From: a virus
Lineage: Duplodnaviria; Heunggongvirae; Uroviricota; Caudoviricetes
DNA: 64,000 bases
Virus record (IMG/VR): IMGVR_UViG_3300028992_000036
Reading direction: 5' to 3' (one strand)
Part shown: positions 11,251 through 44,738 of the stretch, piece by piece
Numbering within the stretch: position 1 is the first letter of the stretch
Layout of the letters: each line of letters opens with the position of its first letter
Translations under genes and position numbers: made by a program
Notes under the pieces: model-generated
What the model saw: only the letters and a program-made list of their open reading frames with translations
What the model was told of the DNA's origin: nothing
The model's database searches: none

Positions 11251-11366
11251 AGATCCCTCTAAAACACACAGAGCGCGTCCATGCGCTCTAAAACAACTTG
11301 TTTACTGCATTTTCTAACCAACTTGTTTTCTGGGTTGTTTAATTAGGTCTGGGCATGTCTTATTAA

Positions 11367-20414: not shown

Positions 20415-20764
20415 GATTAATTCCTTATCGTAAATAACAAATTGTTTTCTTGTTGGTGTTAATTATCGTTGTACGAATAAGGCGTCAAAGTGGAAAGTTG
20501 CGGTAGCCGGACGGGAACAGGTGGGTTTGTCGGTTGCCTGGAGGTAAGAGGTTGGTGTTATTAGCCTGAGGGAAACAGGATGGTCATTTAAGACCACCAA
20601 TGCTGGTGGCCTTAATAATTATCGCCCGATTACGCTAAGGATCTTTTCCTCAACTGATTTGTTGTTGCGACTAAACTGCCTTGCGTATCTGATGACAGAA
20701 GAGGCGTTTTGCTTTCTGACCATCTCGGCTCTTTCCTTCAGGCGTTTCTTGAAATCGCCCATAT

Positions 20765-22090: not shown

Positions 22091-22244
22091 CACAACTCCG
22101 TAAACAACTTGTTTTCTCAATGGCGTAAATAATACCAGTAAGAAAACGGCTACAAAGCATATTGATCAGGTGTATGAGCGATATGCAGGTTCTTCCCTGC
22201 GGCTACAGATGAAGTTAAGCCAGCATTGCTGGCTTTGGTTGGGT

Positions 22245-22574: not shown

Positions 22575-22929
22575 AAAGCAATCCTTAAACAACATGTTTT
22601 CTTGATGGTGTTATTATCGCAATAACGCACAGGCGAAAAAGGATTTTATTCCGGTGAATATGGTTTTGGCAGTGAGTTTTCAGGTTCAGTACCGAGTATA
22701 CTTTTTACATTATTCTGATTTAGTGGCCGAAGGTGGCTGGTGGGCAGAATAATCCTCTCCCCGAAAACCTACTGAAATCGATTGTGACCCGTTGGCTGTC
22801 TGGCACAATTACGCTGTAGCTGGGCATTCAGAGGGAATCCAGCGGTAAGCAAGTCCGCCTACGTGAGCGCCTCTCTTCTTCCCGCACATTACAGGTGGGT
22901 AGCCGCAACTCTCCCTCTCGCTATACCGG

Positions 22930-26414: not shown

Positions 26415-26520
26415 CTCCTAAACAATTTGTTTTCTTATATGACTTATTATCTCAATCAACAAAAGGTAGAAAACAAATTGTTTTAGAGTTTGTTAAAGTC
26501 AGAAGGGGTTGTGTCTATAT

Positions 26521-26567: not shown

Positions 26568-28601
26568 TTACTTAACCTGGTGGCCAGGTTTAGCACCAGC
26601 ATCCGGGCTTAACAGGAAGATATCTTTCCCGCCGGGGCCAGCAGCCATCACCATGCCTTCAGAGATACCGAAGCGCATTTTACGTGGTGCCAGGTTAGCC
26701 ACCATAATGGTGTGACGACCAATCAGTGCCTGTGGATCTGGATAAGCGGAACGGATGCCTGAGAAGACATTACGCTTTTCACCACCGAGATCCAGCGTCA
26801 GGCGAAGCAGTTTGTCAGAACCTTCTACAAACTCTGCGTTTTCAATCAGCGCCACGCGCAGGTCAACTTTGGCGAAGTCGTCAAAGGTGATAGTTTCCTG
26901 AATCGGGTCGTCAGCCAGTGGGCCAGTTACCGGTGCGGCTGTGGCTTTCACTTCTTCTTTGGATGCTTCCACCAGTGCTTCAACCTGCTTCATATCGATG
27001 CGGTTATACAGTGCCTTGAACGGATTCACTTTATGGCCCAGCAGCGGTTGCTGGATACCATCCCAGGTCAGTTCTGTATTCAGGAATGCTTCTGCACGTT
27101 CAGTCAGTTTCGGCAGTACCGGTTTCAGGTACGTCATCAGCACGCGGAACAGGTTAATGCCCATAGAGCAAATCGCCTGCAGATCGGCATCGCGTCCTTC
27201 CTGCTTTGCCACCACCCACGGAGCCTGTTCATCAACATAGCGGTTAGCCAGGTCAGCCAGTGCCATGATTTCACGGATAGCTTTGCCAAATTCGCGGCTT
27301 TCCCATGCTTCGCCAATCACTTCAGCGGCATCAGTAAAGGTTTTGTACAGTTGCGGGTCAGCCAGTTCGCTTGCCAGCACGCCGTCAAAACGCTTGTTGA
27401 TAAAGCCTGCATTACGGGAGGCCAGGTTAACCACTTTGTTAACGATATCGGCATTCACACGCTGAACGAAATCTTCCAGGTTGAGATCGATATCATCAAT
27501 GCGCGAAGAGAGTTTCGCAGTGTAGTAGTAACGCAGGCTGTCGGCGTCAAAATGATTCAGCCAGGTGCTGGCTTTAATAAAGGTGCCGCGAGACTTGGAC
27601 ATCTTCGCGCCGTTCACCGTCACATAGCCGTGAACAAACAGGTTGGTCGGCTTGCGGAAGTTGCTGCCTTCCAGCATGGCAGGCCAGAACAGGCTGTGGA
27701 AGTAAACGATATCTTTGCCGATGAAGTGGTACAGCTCGGCGGTGGAGTCTTTCTTCCAGTATTCGTCGAAGCTGGTAGTGTCGCCGCGTTTGTCGCACAG
27801 ATTCTTGAAGGAACCCATGTAGCCAATCGGCGCGTCCAGCCAGACGTAGAAGTATTTGCCCGGTGCGTTCGGAATTTCAAAACCGAAGTAAGGTGCGTCA
27901 CGGGAGATATCCCACTGTTGCAGGCCAGATTCAAACCACTCCTGCATTTTGTTTGCCACCTGCTCCTGCAACGCACCGCTGCGGGTCCATGCCTGCAACA
28001 TTTCGCTGAAAGAAGGCAGATCAAAGAAGAAGTGTTCGGAATCACGCATTACCGGTGTAGCGCCAGAAACCACTGATTTCGGCTCGATCAGTTCCGTCGG
28101 GCTGTATGTCGCGCCGCAGACTTCACAGTTATCGCCGTATTGATCCGGCGCTTTACATTTCGGGCATGTGCCTTTTACAAAACGGTCCGGCAGGAACATG
28201 CCTTTTTCCGGGTCGTACAGCTGAGAGATGGTGCGGTTTTTAATAAAACCGTTCTCTTTCAGGCGAGTATAGATAAGCTCGGACAACTGACGGTTCTCTT
28301 CGCTGTGCGTCGAGTGATAGTTGTCATAGCTGATGTTAAAGCCTGCGAAATCAGTCTGATGTTCCTGACTCATTTCGCCAATCATCTGTTCCGGTGTGAT
28401 ACCAAGCTGCTGTGCTTTCAGCATGATTGGCGTACCGTGGGCATCGTCGGCACAGATGAAATTAACCTCGTGGCCGCGCATTCGCTGGTAACGAACCCAG
28501 ACATCAGCCTGGATGTGCTCCAGCATATGGCCGAGGTGGATTGAGCCGTTAGCGTACGGCAGCGCGCACGTCACCAGAATTTTCTTCGCGACTTGGGTCA
28601 T
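26568..28601 (-). CDS. metG: methionyl-tRNA synthetase
   Basis: Protein from [29 protein letters not shown]... with class I HIGH motif (HLGH) and KMSKS; 677 aa; track ORF over-extended by 43 codons. Confidence 0.95.
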
Positions 28602-28758: not shown

Positions 28759-29859
28759 ATGAGCGAGTCCAAATCGCCGGATGCCCTGAGAGCAATGGTA
28801 GCCGGTACGCTGGCTAATTTTCAGCACCCAACCCTGAAACACAACCTGACTACGCTTAAAGCGTTACACCATGTTGCGTTGATGGATGACACACTGCATG
28901 TCGAACTAATCATGCCTTTCGTGTGGAATAAGCCTTTTGAAGACCTGAAAGAGCAATGTAGTGGTGATCTGCTCCGTATCACTGGCGCAAAGGCTATTGA
29001 CTGGAAGCTGTCGTACAACATTGCCACGCTTAAGCGCGTCAAAAACCAACCAGGCATTAATGGCGTTAAGAACATTATCGCCGTCAGCTCAGGCAAGGGC
29101 GGCGTGGGTAAATCCTCCACGGCGGTAAACCTGGCACTGGCGTTGGCTGCTGAAGGTGCGAAAGTTGGTATTTTGGATGCCGATATCTATGGTCCATCAA
29201 TTCCAACCATGCTGGGCGCGGAAAACCAACGTCCAACCTCACCGGACGGTACTCACATGGCACCTATCATGTCTCATGGCCTGGCAACCAACTCTATTGG
29301 TTATCTGGTCACCGACGACAATGCAATGGTGTGGCGTGGACCGATGGCCAGCAAGGCGCTGATGCAGATGTTGCAGGAAACACTGTGGCCTGATCTGGAC
29401 TATCTCGTTCTCGATATGCCACCGGGCACTGGTGATATTCAATTGACGCTGGCGCAGAACATTCCTGTAACTGGTGCGGTTGTGGTAACTACGCCGCAAG
29501 ACATCGCGCTGATCGATGCGAAGAAAGGCATTGTGATGTTCGAAAAAGTCGAAGTGCCGGTACTGGGTATCGTTGAAAACATGAGTGTGCATATTTGCAG
29601 TAACTGCGGTCATCACGAGCCAATTTTTGGCACCGGTGGCGCACAGAAACTGGCCGAGAAATACAACACGCAGTTGTTAGGCCAAATGCCACTTCATATC
29701 TCTCTTCGTGAAGATCTGGATAACGGAACACCAACCGTTATTAGTCGTCCAGATAGTGAATTTACGGCTATTTATCGTGACCTCGCAGATCGCGTTGCTG
29801 CCCAAATGTATTGGCAAGGTGAAGTAATACCTGGCGAAATCGCATTCCGCGCAGTGTGA
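28759..29859 (+). CDS. apbC: Fe-S cluster carrier ATPase ApbC/Mrp
   Basis: P-loop [12 protein letters not shown], CxxC region ICSNCGHHE; divergent from metG as in E. coli; GGAG RBS. Confidence 0.9.
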
Positions 29860-32989: not shown

Positions 32990-33130
32990 AATTACACCAT
33001 TAAATAATTTGTTTTCTGATTGGTGTAATTATCGCAAACTTGAAAAGGCATAAAAGCTGCATTCATAGGCGTTACAGCAGATTTAAGGCGTAAAAATGGG
33101 GGCTGTCGCCCCCTGTCGACTGGTGCTGTA

Positions 33131-33697
33131 TTAGAGTGCGTATTGCGTTTTGTGCGGCTGCTTATTCAAGTCATGGCGATGCGTGAGCTCCCGCATCATG
33201 TCTTCAAGGCGACTCTTTGTGTCGTCGAGCTGGTCGGCCATTGCACCTAAAAGCTGGCGAACGGCCATCGGATCGTCGCTGTTTAGTGATGGCATTTTAG
33301 AACCTGCTTTAGAAGACATAAGGTTGATTGCAGACATCAACATCGTTAGAGAGGATTTAAGCCCGGCAATTTCACGATCTTTGCTGGCAATAATCGTCTC
33401 ACTTTTGTTACCGTCATCAGTTTCTTGAGTCTCGCTCACCATATCCAAAGTCGCTTGCAACTTATCAGCTCTCTCTTTTTCAGCAAGGTAATGAACACCG
33501 AAATGGTGTGCCAAAGCTACAATCTGAGTTGGCTCTTCAAAGGTGGAATTAAAATTAAGTATTGTAAACAGTCTCTCAAATATGGAAACGTCTTCTATTC
33601 CTCGAAGAATGGCTAACATTTTGACCAGTTCATTAGCATCCATTTCTTCGAATAAGGCGTTTTGTTCATCAGCTATCGCTTTGCATTTCTTGCACAT
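33131..33697 (-). CDS. hypothetical protein
   Basis: 188 aa; motif A at 33714-33750. Confidence 0.4.
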   Translation of the reverse strand: MCKKCKAIADEQNALFEEMDANELVKMLAILRGIEDVSIFERLFTILNFNSTFEEPTQIVALAHHFGVHYLAEKERADKLQATLDMVSETQETDDGNKSETIIASKDREIAGLKSSLTMLMSAINLMSSKAGSKMPSLNSDDPMAVRQLLGAMADQLDDTKSRLEDMMRELTHRHDLNKQPHKTQYAL

Positions 33698-33994
33698 GTG
33701 TTTTTCCTAATGCTTAAACAAGTTGTTTTCTTATTGTCTTTATTGTGATGTGGCATAAAAGGGGAGCAAGCTAAACGTAAAGGTGCAAACTCTCTATTTC
33801 GGTCAACGAAACACAAGGGCCATTTGGCCCTTGTCATTAACACTTTGCTTTACGAACTAACGGATAAGCGAAGTAGATCGCCAAACCAATGAGGACGCCA
33901 TCAGAAATGACAGACATCATCTTTCCCGTAAAATCCACCAACACCGCCATCACCAGAAGAGCAATGACGATCACAAGCCGGAATCTCTCAAGCA

Positions 33995-34420
33995 TTAGAG
34001 ATAAGCATCCAGTGACAACTGAAGCGCCTGGGCGATCTTTTTCAGTGCCTGCTCTTCTTGTTCACCAATGCCGTCCTGATCGGCAATATCAAGGCACAGA
34101 CACAGAACATCGACCGCCTCTGGAGTACCCGCAATATCAGACAGCTCACGAATAGCCTGTGCATTAGCAGAACGAGGGGACGCTTCGTAACGAGCACGGA
34201 TATTGGCGCTCATTTGGGCAATTTCACCAGCAAACGGAGAAAACGCAGGCAGAGCTGCAATTGTCTTCTCAAGAATGGCAATTTCTTTTGCGTCACATGT
34301 GCCGTCGGCATAGGAGATCATGTACGCGCCCCACACGGTGGCCTCAACCGCATCACGGTTCTCCATTTTTTTGACTTCGATAACAGCTTTACGAGTTTTC
34401 TTTTTGAAGAAACCTAACAT
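33995..34420 (-). CDS. TerB-like domain protein, putative
   Basis: 141 aa helical protein resembling TerB-like modules; motif A at 34443-34475. Weak assignment. Confidence 0.35.
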   Translation of the reverse strand: MLGFFKKKTRKAVIEVKKMENRDAVEATVWGAYMISYADGTCDAKEIAILEKTIAALPAFSPFAGEIAQMSANIRARYEASPRSANAQAIRELSDIAGTPEAVDVLCLCLDIADQDGIGEQEEQALKKIAQALQLSLDAYL

Positions 34421-34513
34421 GTGCTTTCCTTTTATTATTTGTCAAAACAAGTTGTTTTCTAATTACATAAATTGCTTACGCAGAGATGGTCAATGCATAT
34501 GCACTAACAGCCG

Positions 34514-34702
34514 TCAGAAATAACCAAGTACCGAACCAACTGGAAAAACAAAAATCCCAACTACACGAGCCAAGGTCATGCCAGCCTGAAACTGGAGATC
34601 GCCAGAGCAAACAAGTTTTATAATGTTCGATACCCAACCGGCGGCCATAAGGGCAAGAATTGCCAGCCAAATTTTTCCAAAGTGATTTGAAAACCAGTTC
34701 AT
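34514..34702 (-). CDS. small membrane protein (two predicted TM helices)
   Basis: 62 aa hydrophobic; AAGGCGG RBS; start overlaps upstream stop. Confidence 0.4.
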   Translation of the reverse strand: MNWFSNHFGKIWLAILALMAAGWVSNIIKLVCSGDLQFQAGMTLARVVGIFVFPVGSVLGYF

Positions 34703-34950
34703 ACAACCGCCTTAGTCACAGCATGATCCTGAGTAACTGGATGAACTTGAGGTATCGCATCCACCGCCATCCCATCCAGAGTGACAGGACGCTCCACTGG
34801 AGTGGTGGTAATTGTCGTCGACGAAGGTGTGGTGATGGATGAATCCGGCATCAAAAGGCTCTGACCGGCTGGAACGGCTACCGTCGCCAGTGAAACTATA
34901 ATGAGAACGTAGGCCATTGGTTTCAGCCTCTTTCTTTGAAAATTTTCCAT
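34699..34950 (-). CDS. small membrane-anchored Ser/Thr/Pro-rich protein
   Basis: 83 aa; hydrophobic segment AYVLIIVSLATVAVPAG then STP-rich tail; AAGGA RBS. Confidence 0.4.
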   Translation of the reverse strand: MENFQRKRLKPMAYVLIIVSLATVAVPAGQSLLMPDSSITTPSSTTITTTPVERPVTLDGMAVDAIPQVHPVTQDHAVTKAVV

Positions 34951-35206
34951 TCGAACTGTCCTTGTTGTTTTTCTCCTTCACTAAAGGCCGTGCATTTTTC
35001 GCTTCGCGTGAAGAACCAGAGGCAACAATCGCCCCCACGTTCGCAACAACTGACGCTTGATTATCTAAACGTTCATTCAGCAACCGAACGGTAGTCTCTA
35101 GTTCATCAAGGCGTGACATAACACGACCGCTAAATAATTCGGCCAAAATTTGACGTAAAGAACGAGGACGTTTAGTTACAGAAGTGAAATAGGTTTGACG
35201 TGCCAT
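34712..35206 (-). CDS. hypothetical protein; C-terminal half overlaps 34699..34950 out of frame (possible frameshift or sequencing indel)
   Basis: N-terminal ~85 aa look protein-like; remainder is low-complexity typical of out-of-frame translation. Confidence 0.3.
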   Translation of the reverse strand: MARQTYFTSVTKRPRSLRQILAELFSGRVMSRLDELETTVRLLNERLDNQASVVANVGAIVASGSSREAKNARPLVKEKNNKDSSNGKFSKKEAETNGLRSHYSFTGDGSRSSRSEPFDAGFIHHHTFVDDNYHHSSGASCHSGWDGGGCDTSSSSSYSGSCCD

Positions 35207-35354
35207 GTGGACTCCATCCAGTGTCAGAAAGAGTTGCGGCTGGCGATTGCCAGCCGCCTTTCTCGTTCCATCCTGGAACTGTGTCTTACCGACACATTGT
35301 CATCCTGACGCCGATAAGATACATGATTTAAAATGATAGGTAAACACTTACTTA

Positions 35355-35945
35355 CTATTTATTATAAACAAAACCAATATCTTTCTTGTGAGGCATATCT
35401 GCTGCTGAAAAAGCTGCGATCTTCGCGAGTCGATCACATATTTCATTTTCACGATGCCCGGCGTGACCTTTAACCCACTTCCAGCGAACATTATGTCGAC
35501 TTGCGGCCTCATCCAGACGCTTCCACAGATCAACATTCTTTACCGGTTTTTTGTCAGAAGTCATCCATCCATTGCGTTTCCACCATTTCATCCACTGTGT
35601 CATGCCGTTTTTCAGATACTGGCTATCAGAGTGCAAAATAACGTTGCATGGATATTTCAAACGCTCCAGCCCGATAAGTGCCCCCATCATCTCCATGCGG
35701 TTATTGGTGGTGCTATGAAAACCATCTGAGAACTCGCGTTCCTCACCACGATACTGGAGAACGATACCGTAACCGCCCGGGCCACCCGGATTTTTAAGGC
35801 AAGAGCCATCACTAAAGATTTTCACGGTTTTAAGCTGGGGATTGAACTCTACGACAGGCGTTGTGGGATTGGTGCGGGGGGAATTTTTGTTTTTGGCTTT
35901 TTTGCGAGTTTTTGCTTGCGATCGGGCTGGTGTCTTCGTCGTCAT
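35355..35945 (-). CDS. ribonuclease HI homologue with basic N-terminal extension
   Basis: FSDGSC...[11 protein letters not shown]...HSDSQY...VKGHAGH motifs closely resemble E. coli RnhA; CAGGAG RBS before ATG 35945. Confidence 0.75.
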
Positions 35946-36527
35946 ATAAACTCCTGAATCAAGCGCCGCGCCGATTTTTCCTCGCGCGTGCGCACACGCG
36001 TGCGTGTTAATAATTATTAAAATAAACAAATTACTTCCCAGAACAGGTTTTTATAAACCTGAACTGAACGAACGAAGTGAGTGAAGTTCACCTCGAACGA
36101 AGTGAGAGGTTGTCTTTTCAGGTAATACTCTCCCAGGGAGGTGAGTATAAAAATCTCTCACCAACCTGGTCGTTTCATAACCTGAAAAGTTATGGTCTAA
36201 GTCTACTGCCAGCTTAGACTTGGGAAGTTATGGATGACAGCACCCCAGAACCGAGATCTTCCCACACTTTATGAAGGGGAGTACTGGATTCAACCTCTCG
36301 AAACACCCCAGACTCGACAATCATAAAGTGACCCTTGTCTCTGCTCACTTTGGTTCCCCCTTCCCCGACACCTAAACGGCACCAGTTCTACGCTGGTAGT
36401 GAGCTTTTTTAAACCTGACGCCAGTGACGCTTACCCCCACCCATCAGGTCGAGTCTCCAGTCTACGACTGGAAACTATCAGATCTTAGCACTTACAATTC
36501 ACTTTATGAATAGTTTGTACTTATCTA

Positions 36528-36758
36528 TCATTGTGATTGATTATTTTCTCTACCATGTAGTTGAACATTCAAGGCAAACACCTCATTGATCAACTCACCT
36601 AAAAGCTGTTCAACAAGTTCGCGATGCTCGCCAAGATGCAAGCACTTAATTGCCCATTCGTACAAGTTGAAAGCCTGCTCACGATCTTTCATCATTTCAC
36701 GAGCCTGGGCCAGAAAATCGCTCTCTACGAGCGCAACGACATTAGTCGGGTATGACAT
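36528..36758 (-). CDS. small hypothetical protein
   Basis: 76 aa from ATG 36758 with AAGGA RBS. Confidence 0.4.
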   Translation of the reverse strand: MSYPTNVVALVESDFLAQAREMMKDREQAFNLYEWAIKCLHLGEHRELVEQLLGELINEVFALNVQLHGRENNQSQ

Positions 36759-36863
36759 GTTGGTTTCCTTAAAGTGGTTCATAAAATCGATTTTAAAGCG
36801 TCTGGGAAGGGGTTCTAGTGGATTCTGTTGTGATGTTCAGGTCTGGAGTCTCTGATACAAAAC

Positions 36864-44633: not shown

Positions 44634-44738
44634 GTGTTTTTCCTTTTTCTTTTTTATGTGTTTAAACAAGTTGTTATCTTATTTGTTTAAACAAGGCTTA
44701 CAAATCAAAGAGAAGGTGGGGATACACCCCACCATATG

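What the first reader, a model, noticed from the sequence alone, without database searches (positions are those of the whole stretch)
33131..35206. Block of small genes including a TerB-like protein and two tiny membrane proteins
Five short genes sit between the methylase and RNase H: a 188-aa unknown and a possible TerB-like protein, both with motif-A promoters, then a 62-aa two-helix membrane protein, an 83-aa membrane-anchored STP-rich protein and an upstream ORF in another frame. TerB-like modules and small membrane effectors occur in stress and phage-defence contexts.
Basis: inference. Interest (0 to 1): 0.45.

Follow-up and report, generated by a model that had tools for sequence, protein, structure and literature searches.

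The report
Phage early genes with TerB cassette

Summary
The window is an SSU5/pHCM2-like phage-plasmid, 100% identical to E. coli plasmid pSLy3 over the block. The ORFs are real, and all lie on the minus strand.

- **TerB call:** it holds. Pfam TerB scores 31.5 bits against a cut-off of 24.4. The protein is 78.7% identical to P1 TciA. Its AlphaFold model matches TerB-like folds 2H5N and 2OU3.
- **Missed gene:** Its start overlaps the tciA stop by one base.
- **Cassette:** tciA-tciB has its own upstream motif and terminator. It is present or cleanly deleted among relatives, and recurs in temperate and virulent phages.
- **Expression:** in a 96%-identical lysogen the whole block is transcriptionally silent. 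The lysogen-protecting defence reading is therefore not supported.
- **Small membrane ORFs:** the 62-aa and 83-aa ORFs belong to a different, family-conserved unit that is independent of TerB.
- **Overlap:** the 83-aa ORF lies in the +1 frame inside the annotated 164-aa gene. Substitution patterns, a conserved ribosome-binding site and start codon, an ATGA overlap with the 62-aa gene, and stop avoidance suggest both frames are translated.

No function has been shown for any protein here.

The parts
35236..35257 (-). GC-rich hairpin (9 bp, 8 GC) between RNase H and ORF164, with only a weak T-run after it. ORF164 starts 29 nt downstream and has a GGAG ribosome-binding site.
   Evidence: Terminator-like scan; sequence read. 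Its function is not tested.
34712..35206 (-). ORF164, a soluble protein. Residues 1-85 form a conserved basic and coiled-coil-like N-terminal part. Residues from about 86 to 164 form a Ser/Gly/His/Asp/Cys-rich tail encoded by the same DNA as ORF83.
   Evidence: Annotated in RefSeq and in Cyrano; phrog_10411, E 7e-79. The N-terminal part has dN/dS 0.16-0.63 (mostly 0.2-0.4) with dS 1.3-3 between major lineages. The tail frame stays open in 53 of 55 unique homologues. Given the ORF83 protein and local codon usage, the probability of that is only 0.02-0.09 per lineage. The family is restricted to SSU5-like phage-plasmids.
34699..34950 (-). ORF83, embedded in the +1 frame of ORF164. It has a basic N-terminus (MENFQRKRLKP) and one hydrophobic segment at residues 12-34, ending in V-P-A, so it is either a signal peptide or a signal anchor. 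The rest is a Thr/Ser/Pro-rich tail with a conserved LDGM..D.IP motif. Its TGA stop overlaps the ORF62 ATG (ATGA).
   Evidence: phrog_15659, E 8.3e-47. In the overlap, frame-0 third positions are the least variable: 45, 41 and 33 variable columns by phase. dN/dS in this frame is lower than in frame 0 in 24 of 28 lineage pairs. The ATG and a GGA(G) ribosome-binding site 7-8 nt upstream are conserved in 8 lineages, although the frame-0 amino acids there change. The ATGA or GTGA overlap is conserved in all lineages. Hydropathy. An exhaustive search finds homologues only in this family.
34514..34702 (-). ORF62, a small inner-membrane protein with two predicted helices (about 8-32 and 40-62) and a conserved core GGW..N..KL...GDL....GMT.ARVVG.
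   Evidence: Hydropathy; phrog_6006, E 2.1e-25; dN/dS 0.07-0.31. It is found in 51 of 55 unique related sequences, with or without tciAB.
34445..34460 (-). Palindromic 16-mer AGAAAACAACTTGTTT, 24 nt upstream of the tciA ATG and followed by an AGGAAA ribosome-binding site. It is a promoter-proximal, operator-like element.
   Evidence: The transcription start is not mapped.
33995..34420 (-). tciA: a 141-aa soluble TerB-family protein, orthologue of P1 TciA.
33837..33995 (-). tciB: a 52-aa DUF3927 protein forming a two-helix membrane hairpin with basic ends. Its ATG shares one base with the tciA TAA (TAATG).
   Evidence: Pfam DUF3927, E 3.4e-12; phrog_1470 'TciB-like', E 1.4e-21; hydropathy; dN/dS 0.10-0.25. 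It lies directly downstream of the TerB gene in P1, P7, JLK-2012, Fostie, FSL SP-076, phiK7B1 and E. coli prophages.
33813..33834 (-). Intrinsic-terminator-like hairpin (9 bp) plus T-rich tail, starting 3 nt after the tciB stop. It marks the end of the cassette.
   Evidence: A remnant of it (aacaagggcc) survives in relatives that have lost tciAB.
33716..33731 (-). Second exact copy of the 16-mer, 18 nt upstream of the ORF188 ATG. The block CACAATAA-N8-motif-N-AAGGAAAAACAC-ATG is conserved in all lineages.
33131..33697 (-). ORF188: a soluble, acidic, all-helical protein specific to SSU5-like phage-plasmids, with an N-terminal CxxC. Function unknown.
   Evidence: phrog_5508, E 2.2e-108. There are 35 database clusters, with named sources all Enterobacterales and most long contigs about 100-113 kb. 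AlphaFold2 model pLDDT 65.6, six helices. No structural match, best E 1.5. dN/dS 0.11-0.22.
33098..33113 (-). Intrinsic-terminator-like hairpin (6 GC pairs) followed by ATTTTT, after ORF188.
33002..33017 (-). Third motif copy (AGAAAACAAATTATTT), 12 nt upstream of the DUF4942-methyltransferase ATG and preceded by GATAAT 9-10 nt upstream. Included as context for the cassette-like organisation.

Best explanation
The block is not one system. It is a piece of the co-directional early (DNA-metabolism) arm of an SSU5/pHCM2-like phage-plasmid and contains three separate expression units.

(1) ORF164 > ORF83 > ORF62 is a trio conserved across the family.
- ORF83, a secreted or membrane-anchored Thr/Ser/Pro-rich peptide, is encoded in the +1 frame inside the 3' half of ORF164, a cytoplasmic protein.
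- ORF83's stop overlaps the start of ORF62, a two-helix membrane protein.
- The three are therefore probably made together from one mRNA by translational coupling.

(2) tciA-tciB is an accessory two-gene cassette orthologous to P1 tciA-tciB.
- It encodes a soluble TerB-fold protein and a translationally coupled 52-aa two-helix membrane protein.
- It is bounded by a palindromic promoter-proximal motif and a terminator.
- Related phage-plasmids have gained, kept or cleanly deleted it.

(3) ORF188 is a family-specific helical protein with its own copy of the motif and its own terminator.

Shown here:
- Gene content, family membership and the TerB fold.
- The TerB-DUF3927 pairing.
- Presence or absence of the cassette among relatives.
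- Purifying selection on all genes, and the signatures of two-frame coding.

Taken from the literature: the block is transcriptionally silent in a near-identical lysogen.

Inferred:
- The palindrome is an operator of the phage repressor system, analogous to the dispersed C1 operators of P1. The units would then switch on only in lytic growth.
- TciB tethers TciA to the cytoplasmic face of the inner membrane, as TerC is reported to do for TerB. The pair would then stabilise or guard the membrane of the infected cell until programmed lysis, against superinfecting phage, pore formers or premature depolarisation.
- This last step is a guess by analogy. No function has been shown for TciA or TciB in any phage.
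For: Identity of the element:
- 100% identical to pSLy3 and 96-97% to phages CMS-2020a and Cyrano.
- Neighbouring genes are nrdAB, thyX, DHFR, an exonuclease, Dam and RNase H.

TerB/TciA.

TciB and its coupling to TciA:
- (TAATG overlap).
- The pairing recurs in P1, P7, lambdoid phages, a virulent N4-like phage and a virulent Pseudomonas phage, and in E. coli prophages between Q and the holins.
- One natural TciA-TciB fusion exists, P0136.

Cassette behaviour:
- The architectures found are ORF62 > [tciAB | Rha | tciAB+Rha | nothing | other] > ORF188.
- pHCM2-type elements keep the upstream motif and the remnant after the tciB stop, but lack the two coding sequences.

Lytic-phase expression:
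- Cyrano genes CYRAN_83 to CYRAN_87 read log2 2.3-3.3 in overnight LB, against 6.4-6.8 for the repressor. They are not among the 13 genes expressed in lysogeny.
- P1 tciABC lie downstream of the C1-controlled ban operators and are non-essential.

Two-frame coding.

Reported TerB-TerC interaction: PMC11003894, citing Turkovicova 2016.
Against: - No experiment addresses the function of any of the six proteins. The mechanism for TciAB rests on analogy with an operon (ter) whose own mechanism is unresolved.
- The transcription starts are not mapped. The sigma-70-like elements upstream of the motif are weak for tciA and ORF188, so 'operator' against 'phage-specific promoter' is undecided.
- The lysogen RNA-seq shows a small rise of tciA after 1 h in the B1 condition (log2 about 5.7-6.0). 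Low conditional expression in lysogens is therefore not excluded.
- The evidence that the ORF164 tail is kept open by selection is moderate. The probability is about 0.02-0.09 per lineage and the lineages are not independent. About 3% of ORF83-synonymous mutations would create a stop.
- Amino-acid-level constraint on that tail is not detectable: dN/dS is about 0.65-1.75 between major lineages, like the non-coding third frame.
- About 1% of database sequences carry frameshifts in the overlap.
Confidence: 0.65

Rival explanations
1. One reading: TerB and the small membrane proteins form a stress or defence module. It would be expressed in the lysogen and protect it from other phages, colicins or tellurite, by superinfection exclusion or abortive infection through small membrane effectors.
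For: - TerB domains occur in validated defence systems: Shango, Bunzi and Dionysus (bioRxiv 10.1101/2025.09.30.679545).
- The ter operon is linked to phage inhibition and colicin resistance (Whelan 1995, cited).
- Iyer et al. propose that phage-borne Ter genes act against superinfecting phages (PMC7824862).
- The cassette sits in a variable slot.
Against: - No PADLOC hit for any of the six proteins.
- No helicase, ATPase or pore-forming partner gene is present.
- ORF62 and ORF83 are inherited independently of TerB.
- The block is silent in the Cyrano lysogen.
- The cassette occurs in virulent phages and in lytic-only operons: after Q and before the holins, and in the P1 ban operon.
- Exclusion of superinfecting phages during the lytic cycle remains compatible with these data and is folded into the best explanation.
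Confidence: 0.15
2. Only one of the two overlapping frames is a gene. Either the RefSeq 164-aa call is right and ORF83 is a by-product of its composition, or ORF83 is the gene and the 3' half of ORF164 is translated junk.
For: - Given the ORF164 tail sequence, frame 1 would be open by chance with probability 0.13-0.74.
- The ORF164 tail has dN/dS near 1.
- Both proteins are low-complexity mirror images of each other: ACC repeats read as Thr in one frame and His in the other.
Against: Against 'ORF164 only':
- Its third codon positions are the least variable in the overlap.
- Its dS falls from 1.3-3 to 0.2-0.6 in the overlap.
- ORF83 has a conserved ATG and ribosome-binding site, a conserved hydrophobic segment, and a conserved ATGA junction in which the second codon of ORF62 always starts with A despite coding five different amino acids.

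Against 'ORF83 only':
- Frame 0 stays open in every lineage, with probability 0.02-0.09 each.
- It always ends 9 nt before the ORF62 start.
Confidence: 0.2
3. Programmed +1 frameshifting or transcriptional slippage joins the ORF164 N-terminal part to the ORF83 C-terminal part, making a fusion protein in addition to, or instead of, the separate products.
For: Several database entries are exactly such fusions. They arise from loss of one T in CCTTTTGAT (P0166, P0168, P0169, P0173), from a change in an A-run (P0179), or at other points (L062, L084).
Against: - The fusions are DNA-level indels at different positions.
- They make up about 1% of member sequences.
- Shifts into the third frame also occur (P0165).
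- No conserved slippery site with a stimulator was seen.
- ORF83 has its own conserved start signals.
- Homopolymer sequencing errors are a sufficient explanation.
Confidence: 0.04
4. ORF164, ORF83 and ORF62 are lysis proteins: an embedded Rz/Rz1-like spanin pair plus a small holin.
For: - The embedded +1-frame arrangement is the same as in lambda Rz/Rz1.
- ORF62 has two helices, like class II holins and pinholins.
Against: - ORF164 has no transmembrane segment, and ORF83 has no cysteine and so no lipobox.
- No Pfam or PHROG lysis family matches.
- The near-identical Cyrano has a complete holin-endolysin-Rz-Rz1 cassette about 52 kb away.
Confidence: 0.04

Closest known systems
[quoted passage not shown]
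   Same: - TciA is 78.7% identical.
- A DUF3927 TciB follows with the same one-base stop/start overlap.
- Both hosts are phage-plasmids.
- Both loci lie among early or replication genes behind a repressor-type operator.
- The P1 genes are non-essential.
   Different: - There is no tciC here; a terminator follows tciB directly.
- Here the pair is a free-standing cassette with its own upstream motif. In P1 it is part of the long ban operon.
- No tRNA genes are adjacent, and none occur anywhere in the window.
TerB of the plasmid or chromosomal ter operon (terZABCDEF)
   Same: Same Pfam family and same helical fold. TerB is reported to work at the membrane with a membrane partner, TerC.
   Different: - No terC, terD, terE, terZ, terA or terF is present.
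- The partner is a 52-aa hairpin protein, not the multi-pass TerC.
- Sequence similarity to solved TerB-like proteins is too low for a sequence search to find them.
- Tellurite resistance is unlikely from TerB alone, as PMC8421299 also argues for a phage terB.
TerB-containing anti-phage systems: Shango (SngA), Bunzi (BnzA), Dionysus (DinB)
   Same: They contain a TerB domain and are proposed to act at, or to monitor, the membrane.
   Different: - No PADLOC model is hit.
- No helicase/ATPase, MAEBL-type or four-helix pore-forming partner is present.
- The genes are carried by phages, including virulent ones, and are silent in the lysogen.
Embedded out-of-frame gene pairs in phages, such as lambda Rz/Rz1
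   Same: A small envelope-targeted protein is encoded in the +1 frame entirely within the 3' part of a larger gene.
   Different: - The outer protein has no membrane anchor and the inner one is not a lipoprotein.
- The pair is not in the lysis cassette.
- The embedded gene runs 13 nt past the outer gene's stop and couples to a third gene.
Dispersed repressor operators of P1 (C1 sites) and the repeated promoter cassettes that flank shuffled early genes in T4-type phages (the latter from memory)
   Same: A short repeated element sits in front of many separate early genes (23 hits in the window). It marks the borders at which cassettes are present or absent.
   Different: The sequence is unrelated. 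Binding by a repressor, and any role in recombination, are not tested.

Membership tests
TerB family (Pfam PF05099) | Profile HMM match above the curated gathering score | tested here: met
   31.5 bits against a cut-off of 24.4, E 2.4e-7, covering residues 33-136. Close homologues carry precomputed PF05099.
TerB family (Pfam PF05099) | TerB-like all-helical fold | tested here: met
TerB family (Pfam PF05099) | Two repeated acidic D-G...E motifs thought to bind a metal (the motif definition is from memory) | tested here: inconclusive
   YADGTCDAKEIAILE and IADQDGIGEQEEQAL are present. D39, E46, D114 and G117 are invariant, and D116 and E122 nearly so, in 20 homologues. The geometry in the model was not inspected.
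Ter operon (terZABCDEF) tellurite, phage and colicin resistance system | Co-occurrence with terC, terD and terE, which are needed for the phenotypes | tested here: not met
   No such genes are in the block or in the 46 kb of annotated context.
Ter operon (terZABCDEF) tellurite, phage and colicin resistance system | Confers tellurite resistance, phage inhibition or colicin resistance | not testable with these tools
   Needs MIC, plaque and colicin assays.
P1-type tciA-tciB cassette | TciA orthologue followed directly by a DUF3927 protein with overlapping stop and start | tested here: met
   78.7% identity to P1 TciA. DUF3927, E 3.4e-12. TAATG overlap at position 33995, the same arrangement as in P1.
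P1-type tciA-tciB cassette | Third small gene, tciC | tested here: not met
   A terminator hairpin begins 3 nt after the tciB stop. The only ORF of 30 aa or more in the 139-nt gap before ORF188 (33673-33843, 56 aa) overlaps the terminator, the motif and both flanking genes, and is not annotated.
P1-type tciA-tciB cassette | Expression under the lysogeny repressor, that is, lytic-phase only | tested here: inconclusive
   Only indirect evidence is available. The orthologous Cyrano genes are at floor level in the lysogen, and an operator-like palindrome lies upstream. No induction time course is held.
Known TerB-containing defence systems (Shango, Bunzi, Dionysus) | Match to the system's protein models and presence of its partner genes | tested here: not met
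   No PADLOC family at E <= 0.1 for any of the six proteins. The neighbours are ORF62 and ORF188, both with no matches. Dionysus post-dates PADLOC 2.0.0, so its models were not searched, but no MAEBL-type or four-helix pore-forming neighbour is present.
Embedded spanin pair (Rz/Rz1 type) | Outer gene encodes an N-terminal membrane anchor, the inner gene encodes a lipoprotein with a lipobox cysteine, and the pair lies in the lysis cassette | tested here: not met
   ORF164 has no transmembrane-like window and ORF83 has no cysteine. The lysis cassette lies elsewhere in Cyrano. Only the embedded +1-frame geometry is shared.
Overlapping (dual-coding) gene pair | Both frames open and under selection across diverged relatives, each with its own start signals | tested here: met
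   - Both frames are open in 53 of 55 unique sequences.
- The ORF83 frame has the lowest dN/dS in 24 of 28 pairs.
- dS in the ORF164 frame drops in the overlap.
- Stop avoidance in frame 0 has probability 0.02-0.09 per lineage.
- The ribosome-binding site and ATG of ORF83 are conserved.
- Translation itself is not shown.

The most novel reading that the evidence does not exclude
Two linked possibilities remain open.

First, ORF164, ORF83 and ORF62 may be a previously undescribed, dual-coded envelope module of SSU5-like phage-plasmids. It would comprise a cytoplasmic coiled-coil protein, a secreted Thr/Ser/Pro-rich peptide read from the same DNA in another frame, and a two-helix membrane protein. 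The three would be translationally coupled, with a dedicated role in the infected cell's envelope, for example exclusion of superinfecting phage or control of lysis timing.

Second, TciA-TciB may be a widespread lytic-phase 'membrane guard' used by temperate and virulent phages alike, rather than a resistance determinant for the host.
Probability: 0.25. Interest if true: 0.5.

Novelty: new member of a known kind. Interest (0 to 1): 0.3.

Why it matters
- It corrects a tempting mis-reading. 'TerB plus tiny membrane proteins' looks like a defence island. Here it is a phage-borne, lytic-phase cassette (TerB plus DUF3927) sitting next to unrelated family-specific genes.
- It identifies DUF3927 as the constant partner of phage TerB proteins across P1-like, SSU5-like, lambdoid, N4-like and Pseudomonas phages. 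This gives a concrete two-protein unit to test for a 20-year-old 'by homology' annotation.
- It flags a probable mis-annotation, or missing annotation, in hundreds of RefSeq plasmids: an 83-aa gene embedded in a 164-aa gene.
- These phage-plasmids are common in clinical Enterobacteriaceae (hundreds of PLSDB plasmid records in Klebsiella, Escherichia, Salmonella and Enterobacter match), so their accessory slots are of practical interest.

Tried and rejected
- **PADLOC and NCBIfam scans** of all block proteins gave nothing relevant.
- **Sequence searches of the PDB** with TciA alone and with a 20-sequence profile found no TerB entry. Only fold comparison worked.
- **ORF188:** the homologue search stayed inside the family, the AlphaFold2 model was mediocre (pLDDT 65.6, pTM 0.30) and Foldseek gave no match (best E 1.5). 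Its function is left open.
- **ORF83:** an exhaustive HMMER search of 1.84 billion representatives gave 10 hits, nearly all from the same family or its frame-fusion variants, with no stand-alone homologue elsewhere.
- **ORF164:** the word-index search gave 28 clusters, all in the family. A scan of genome contigs added only 3 loci.
- **Rfam and ARAGORN** on the whole window found no RNA genes.
- **Spanin, holin and programmed-frameshift readings** of the overlapping pair were considered and rejected (see rival explanations).
- **A strict sigma-70 reading of 'motif A'** was rejected. The consensus scan found no more promoter-like sites than in shuffles (5 against 4.7). The 16-mer lies between a -10-like box and the ribosome-binding site, so it is not itself a -35/-10 pair.
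- **tRNA adjacency:** tRNA genes flank tciAB in P1, P7, JLK-2012, ChrisDB and phiK7B1. This does not apply here.
Full report
**What the element is**

The window is an SSU5/pHCM2-like phage-plasmid of E. coli. The 2.6 kb around the finding is 100% identical to plasmid pSLy3 (NZ_CP015915) and 96-97% identical to Escherichia phages CMS-2020a and Cyrano. Weaker matches occur in hundreds of non-mobilizable plasmids, mostly about 110 kb, of Klebsiella, Escherichia, Salmonella and Enterobacter. All genes of the block lie on the minus strand. They sit inside a long co-directional run of DNA-metabolism genes: nrdAB, thyX, DHFR, a 3'-5' exonuclease, Dam methylase and RNase H.

**Check of the observation**

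The TerB guess is right.
- Pfam PF05099 scores 31.5 bits against a gathering score of 24.4.
- PHROG 'tellurite resistance' gives E 4.8e-63.
- The protein is 78.7% identical to P1 TciA.

- It is a DUF3927 protein (Pfam E 3.4e-12; PHROG 'TciB-like', E 1.4e-21).
- It has two hydrophobic helices and basic ends.
- Its ATG shares one base with the tciA stop (TAATG).

All the small genes are under purifying selection between lineages whose synonymous sites are near saturation. dN/dS is 0.02-0.13 for TciA, 0.10-0.25 for TciB, 0.07-0.31 for ORF62 and 0.11-0.22 for ORF188.

**The tciA-tciB cassette**

I collected 80 related loci (55 unique sequences) from plasmids, IMG/VR and genomes. The gene order is constant except for one slot:

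ORF164/83 > ORF62 > [tciA-tciB | Rha regulator | tciA-tciB-Rha | nothing | other genes] > ORF188 > (two optional genes) > DUF4942-methyltransferase.

- tciA is always followed by tciB.
- In pHCM2-type elements the upstream motif, the start of the tciA leader and a remnant of the sequence just after the tciB stop are still present, but the two coding sequences are gone. This is a clean deletion.
- The TerB-DUF3927 pair also occurs in P1 and P7 (in the ban operon, behind C1 operators). It occurs in lambdoid phages and E. coli prophages between the Q antiterminator and the holins. It occurs in the virulent N4-like Salmonella phage FSL SP-076 and a virulent Pseudomonas phage.
- The match to the downstream small ORF is only sub-threshold in an Erwinia jumbo phage. 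In a Vibrio phage it is absent, and that phage carries terC instead.
- One assembled contig encodes the two proteins as a fusion (P0136).

**When the block is expressed**

The 16-mer AGAAAACAACTTGTTT is an interrupted palindrome, AAACAA-n-TTGTTT. It precedes tciA, ORF188 and, with two mismatches to the exact 16-mer, the methyltransferase gene. It lies 12-24 nt before each ATG and just upstream of the ribosome-binding site. With up to three mismatches it occurs 23 times in the window, against 1.2 expected. At several genes a GATAAT-like box lies 9-10 nt upstream of it. This places the motif around the transcription start, as expected for an operator.

Published RNA-seq of the LF82 lysogen of Cyrano shows ORF164, ORF62, TciA, TciB and ORF188 (CYRAN_83 to CYRAN_87) at floor level in overnight LB. 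Their log2 values are 2.3-3.3, against 6.4-6.8 for the repressor. They are absent from the list of 13 genes expressed in lysogeny (PMC9928086). In P1 the genes are dispensable for lytic growth (PMC10695390).

Together with the cassette's position in lytic operons of other phages and its presence in virulent phages, this argues against a product made in the lysogen to protect it. It argues for a role during lytic development.

**How tciAB may work (inference)**

TerB of the ter operon is reported to interact with the membrane protein TerC (Turkovicova 2016, cited in PMC11003894). TerB domains in defence systems are proposed to be amphitropic membrane sensors. By analogy, the translationally coupled TciB hairpin would hold TciA at the inner face of the membrane. 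There the pair would protect or monitor the membrane of the infected cell until holin-triggered lysis. Iyer et al. suggested competition with superinfecting phages for phage-borne Ter genes (PMC7824862).

None of this has been tested in any phage. No PADLOC defence model matches, and no ter-operon partner is present.

**The overlapping pair**

RefSeq annotates the 164-aa ORF. Other annotators have called the 83-aa ORF, and each has its own PHROG family. Both frames are open in 53 of 55 unique homologues. The two exceptions are frameshifts, not stops.

- In the non-overlapping 5' half of ORF164 the coding signature is normal. Variable columns by codon position are 53, 40 and 68 of about 80. dN/dS is mostly 0.2-0.4 and dS is 1.3-3 between major lineages.
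- In the overlap the third positions of ORF164 become the least variable (45, 41, 33). Its dS falls to 0.2-0.6. The ORF83 frame has the lowest dN/dS in 24 of 28 lineage pairs, about 0.16-0.78 between diverged lineages. Frame 0 gives 0.65-1.75 and the non-coding third frame 0.55-1.8.
- ORF83 keeps its ATG and a GGA(G) box 7-8 nt upstream in eight lineages, although the ORF164 amino acids encoded there change.
- ORF83 keeps a hydrophobic segment ending in (V/I)-P-(A/S), which is either a signal peptide or an anchor (inference from the sequences).
- Its stop always overlaps the ORF62 start as ATGA or GTGA. The second ORF62 codon always begins with A although it encodes five different amino acids.
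- Conversely, given the ORF83 protein and local codon usage, the ORF164 frame would stay open with probability only 0.02-0.09 per lineage. The reverse probability is 0.13-0.74. About 3% of ORF83-synonymous mutations would create a stop. The ORF164 stop always lies 9 nt before the ORF62 start.

My reading is that both frames are translated. ORF83 carries the amino-acid-level constraint. The ORF164 tail is kept open, possibly only so that ribosomes reach ORF62, with little constraint on its sequence.

Frameshift variants that fuse the two proteins exist but make up about 1% of sequences and occur at different sites. I do not favour programmed frameshifting.

The trio is not the lysis cassette, which lies about 52 kb away in Cyrano. 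It also lacks the defining features of spanins. The family is confined to SSU5-like phage-plasmids.

**ORF188**

This is a family-restricted acidic helical protein with its own motif copy and its own terminator. No domain, fold or remote homologue was found.

**Verdict**

The TerB assignment is confirmed. The 'defence or stress block' interpretation is not supported.

The TerB part is already annotated in public records as a P1 TciA/TciB-like pair of unknown function. New here:
- the constant TerB-DUF3927 pairing across phage types;
- the evidence that the cassette has been gained and lost in this family;
- the evidence for lytic-phase expression;
- the case for an unannotated embedded gene.

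Interest is modest.

Noticed in passing
window 36040-36460, minus strand (between the 76-aa gene at 36528-36782 and RNase H at 35355-36029): About 400 nt of 'intergenic' DNA is roughly 95% identical across lineages whose flanking protein genes are only about 67% identical. Only a 44-aa ORF is annotated there (Cyrano CYRAN_81, window 36214-36348). That locus is one of the few regions strongly transcribed in the lysogen, 12-fold above background. There is no Rfam, tRNA or tmRNA match. The predicted fold is -146.9 kcal/mol, z -2.9. It is a candidate large structured RNA, or an RNA-primed origin next to the phage RNase H.
   Followed up: partly
window, 23 matches including 11288-11331, 20432-20450, 22099-22117, 22587-22602, 26420-26486, 33002-33017, 33716-33731, 34442-34460 and 44664-44679: The palindromic motif AGAAAACAAnTTGTTT is scattered in front of many early genes on both strands, with 23 matches against 1.2 expected. 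At several genes it lies 9-10 nt downstream of a GATAAT box and just upstream of the ribosome-binding site. It looks like a dispersed operator or early-promoter element, comparable in logic to the C1 operators of P1. Its binding protein is unknown.
   Followed up: partly
L007 (pHCM2) 108 nt between ORF62 and Rha; L043 and L068: pHCM2-type elements retain the tciA upstream motif and a remnant of the sequence after the tciB stop. This suggests an ancestral tciA-tciB-Rha arrangement (still present in L043 and L068) with differential loss: the window lineage lost Rha, pHCM2 lost tciAB, and L062 lost both.
   Followed up: yes
window 34867-34875 (CCTTTTGAT) and the A-run at about 34976-34980, within the ORF164/ORF83 overlap or just upstream of the ORF83 start: Recurrent one-base deletions in different sub-lineages produce 168-aa fusions of the ORF164 N-terminal part to the ORF83 C-terminal part (P0166, P0168, P0169, P0173, P0179). 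Other fusion points occur in L062 and L084. They are probably sequencing errors or sporadic mutations, about 1% of sequences.
   Followed up: partly
L003 (P1), L090 (P7), L087 (JLK-2012), L086 (ChrisDB), L088 (phiK7B1): In five unrelated phages the TerB-DUF3927 pair sits directly beside tRNA genes. The window has no tRNA gene at all. The reason for this association is unknown.
   Followed up: no
window about 26568-28601 (minus strand) and 28759-29859 (plus strand), coordinates mapped from the pSLy3 annotation: Full-length host-type genes metG (methionine-tRNA ligase) and apbC (iron-sulfur cluster carrier) are carried by this phage-plasmid a few kb from the block. In Cyrano the same position holds Ea22-like, Eae-like and Eaa-like genes instead.
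   Followed up: no
L093-L096 (E. coli chromosomal prophages): In lambdoid prophages tciA-tciB lie immediately upstream of the two holin genes and downstream of Q. They would therefore be co-transcribed with the lysis genes. This hints at a link with membrane events at lysis.
   Followed up: partly
L008 and L012 (Klebsiella and Enterobacter relatives), the slot between ORF164 and DUF4942: In these relatives ORF62, tciAB and ORF188 are all replaced by a single 689-aa gene on the opposite strand, annotated 'HypX' in one record. It was not characterised.
   Followed up: no
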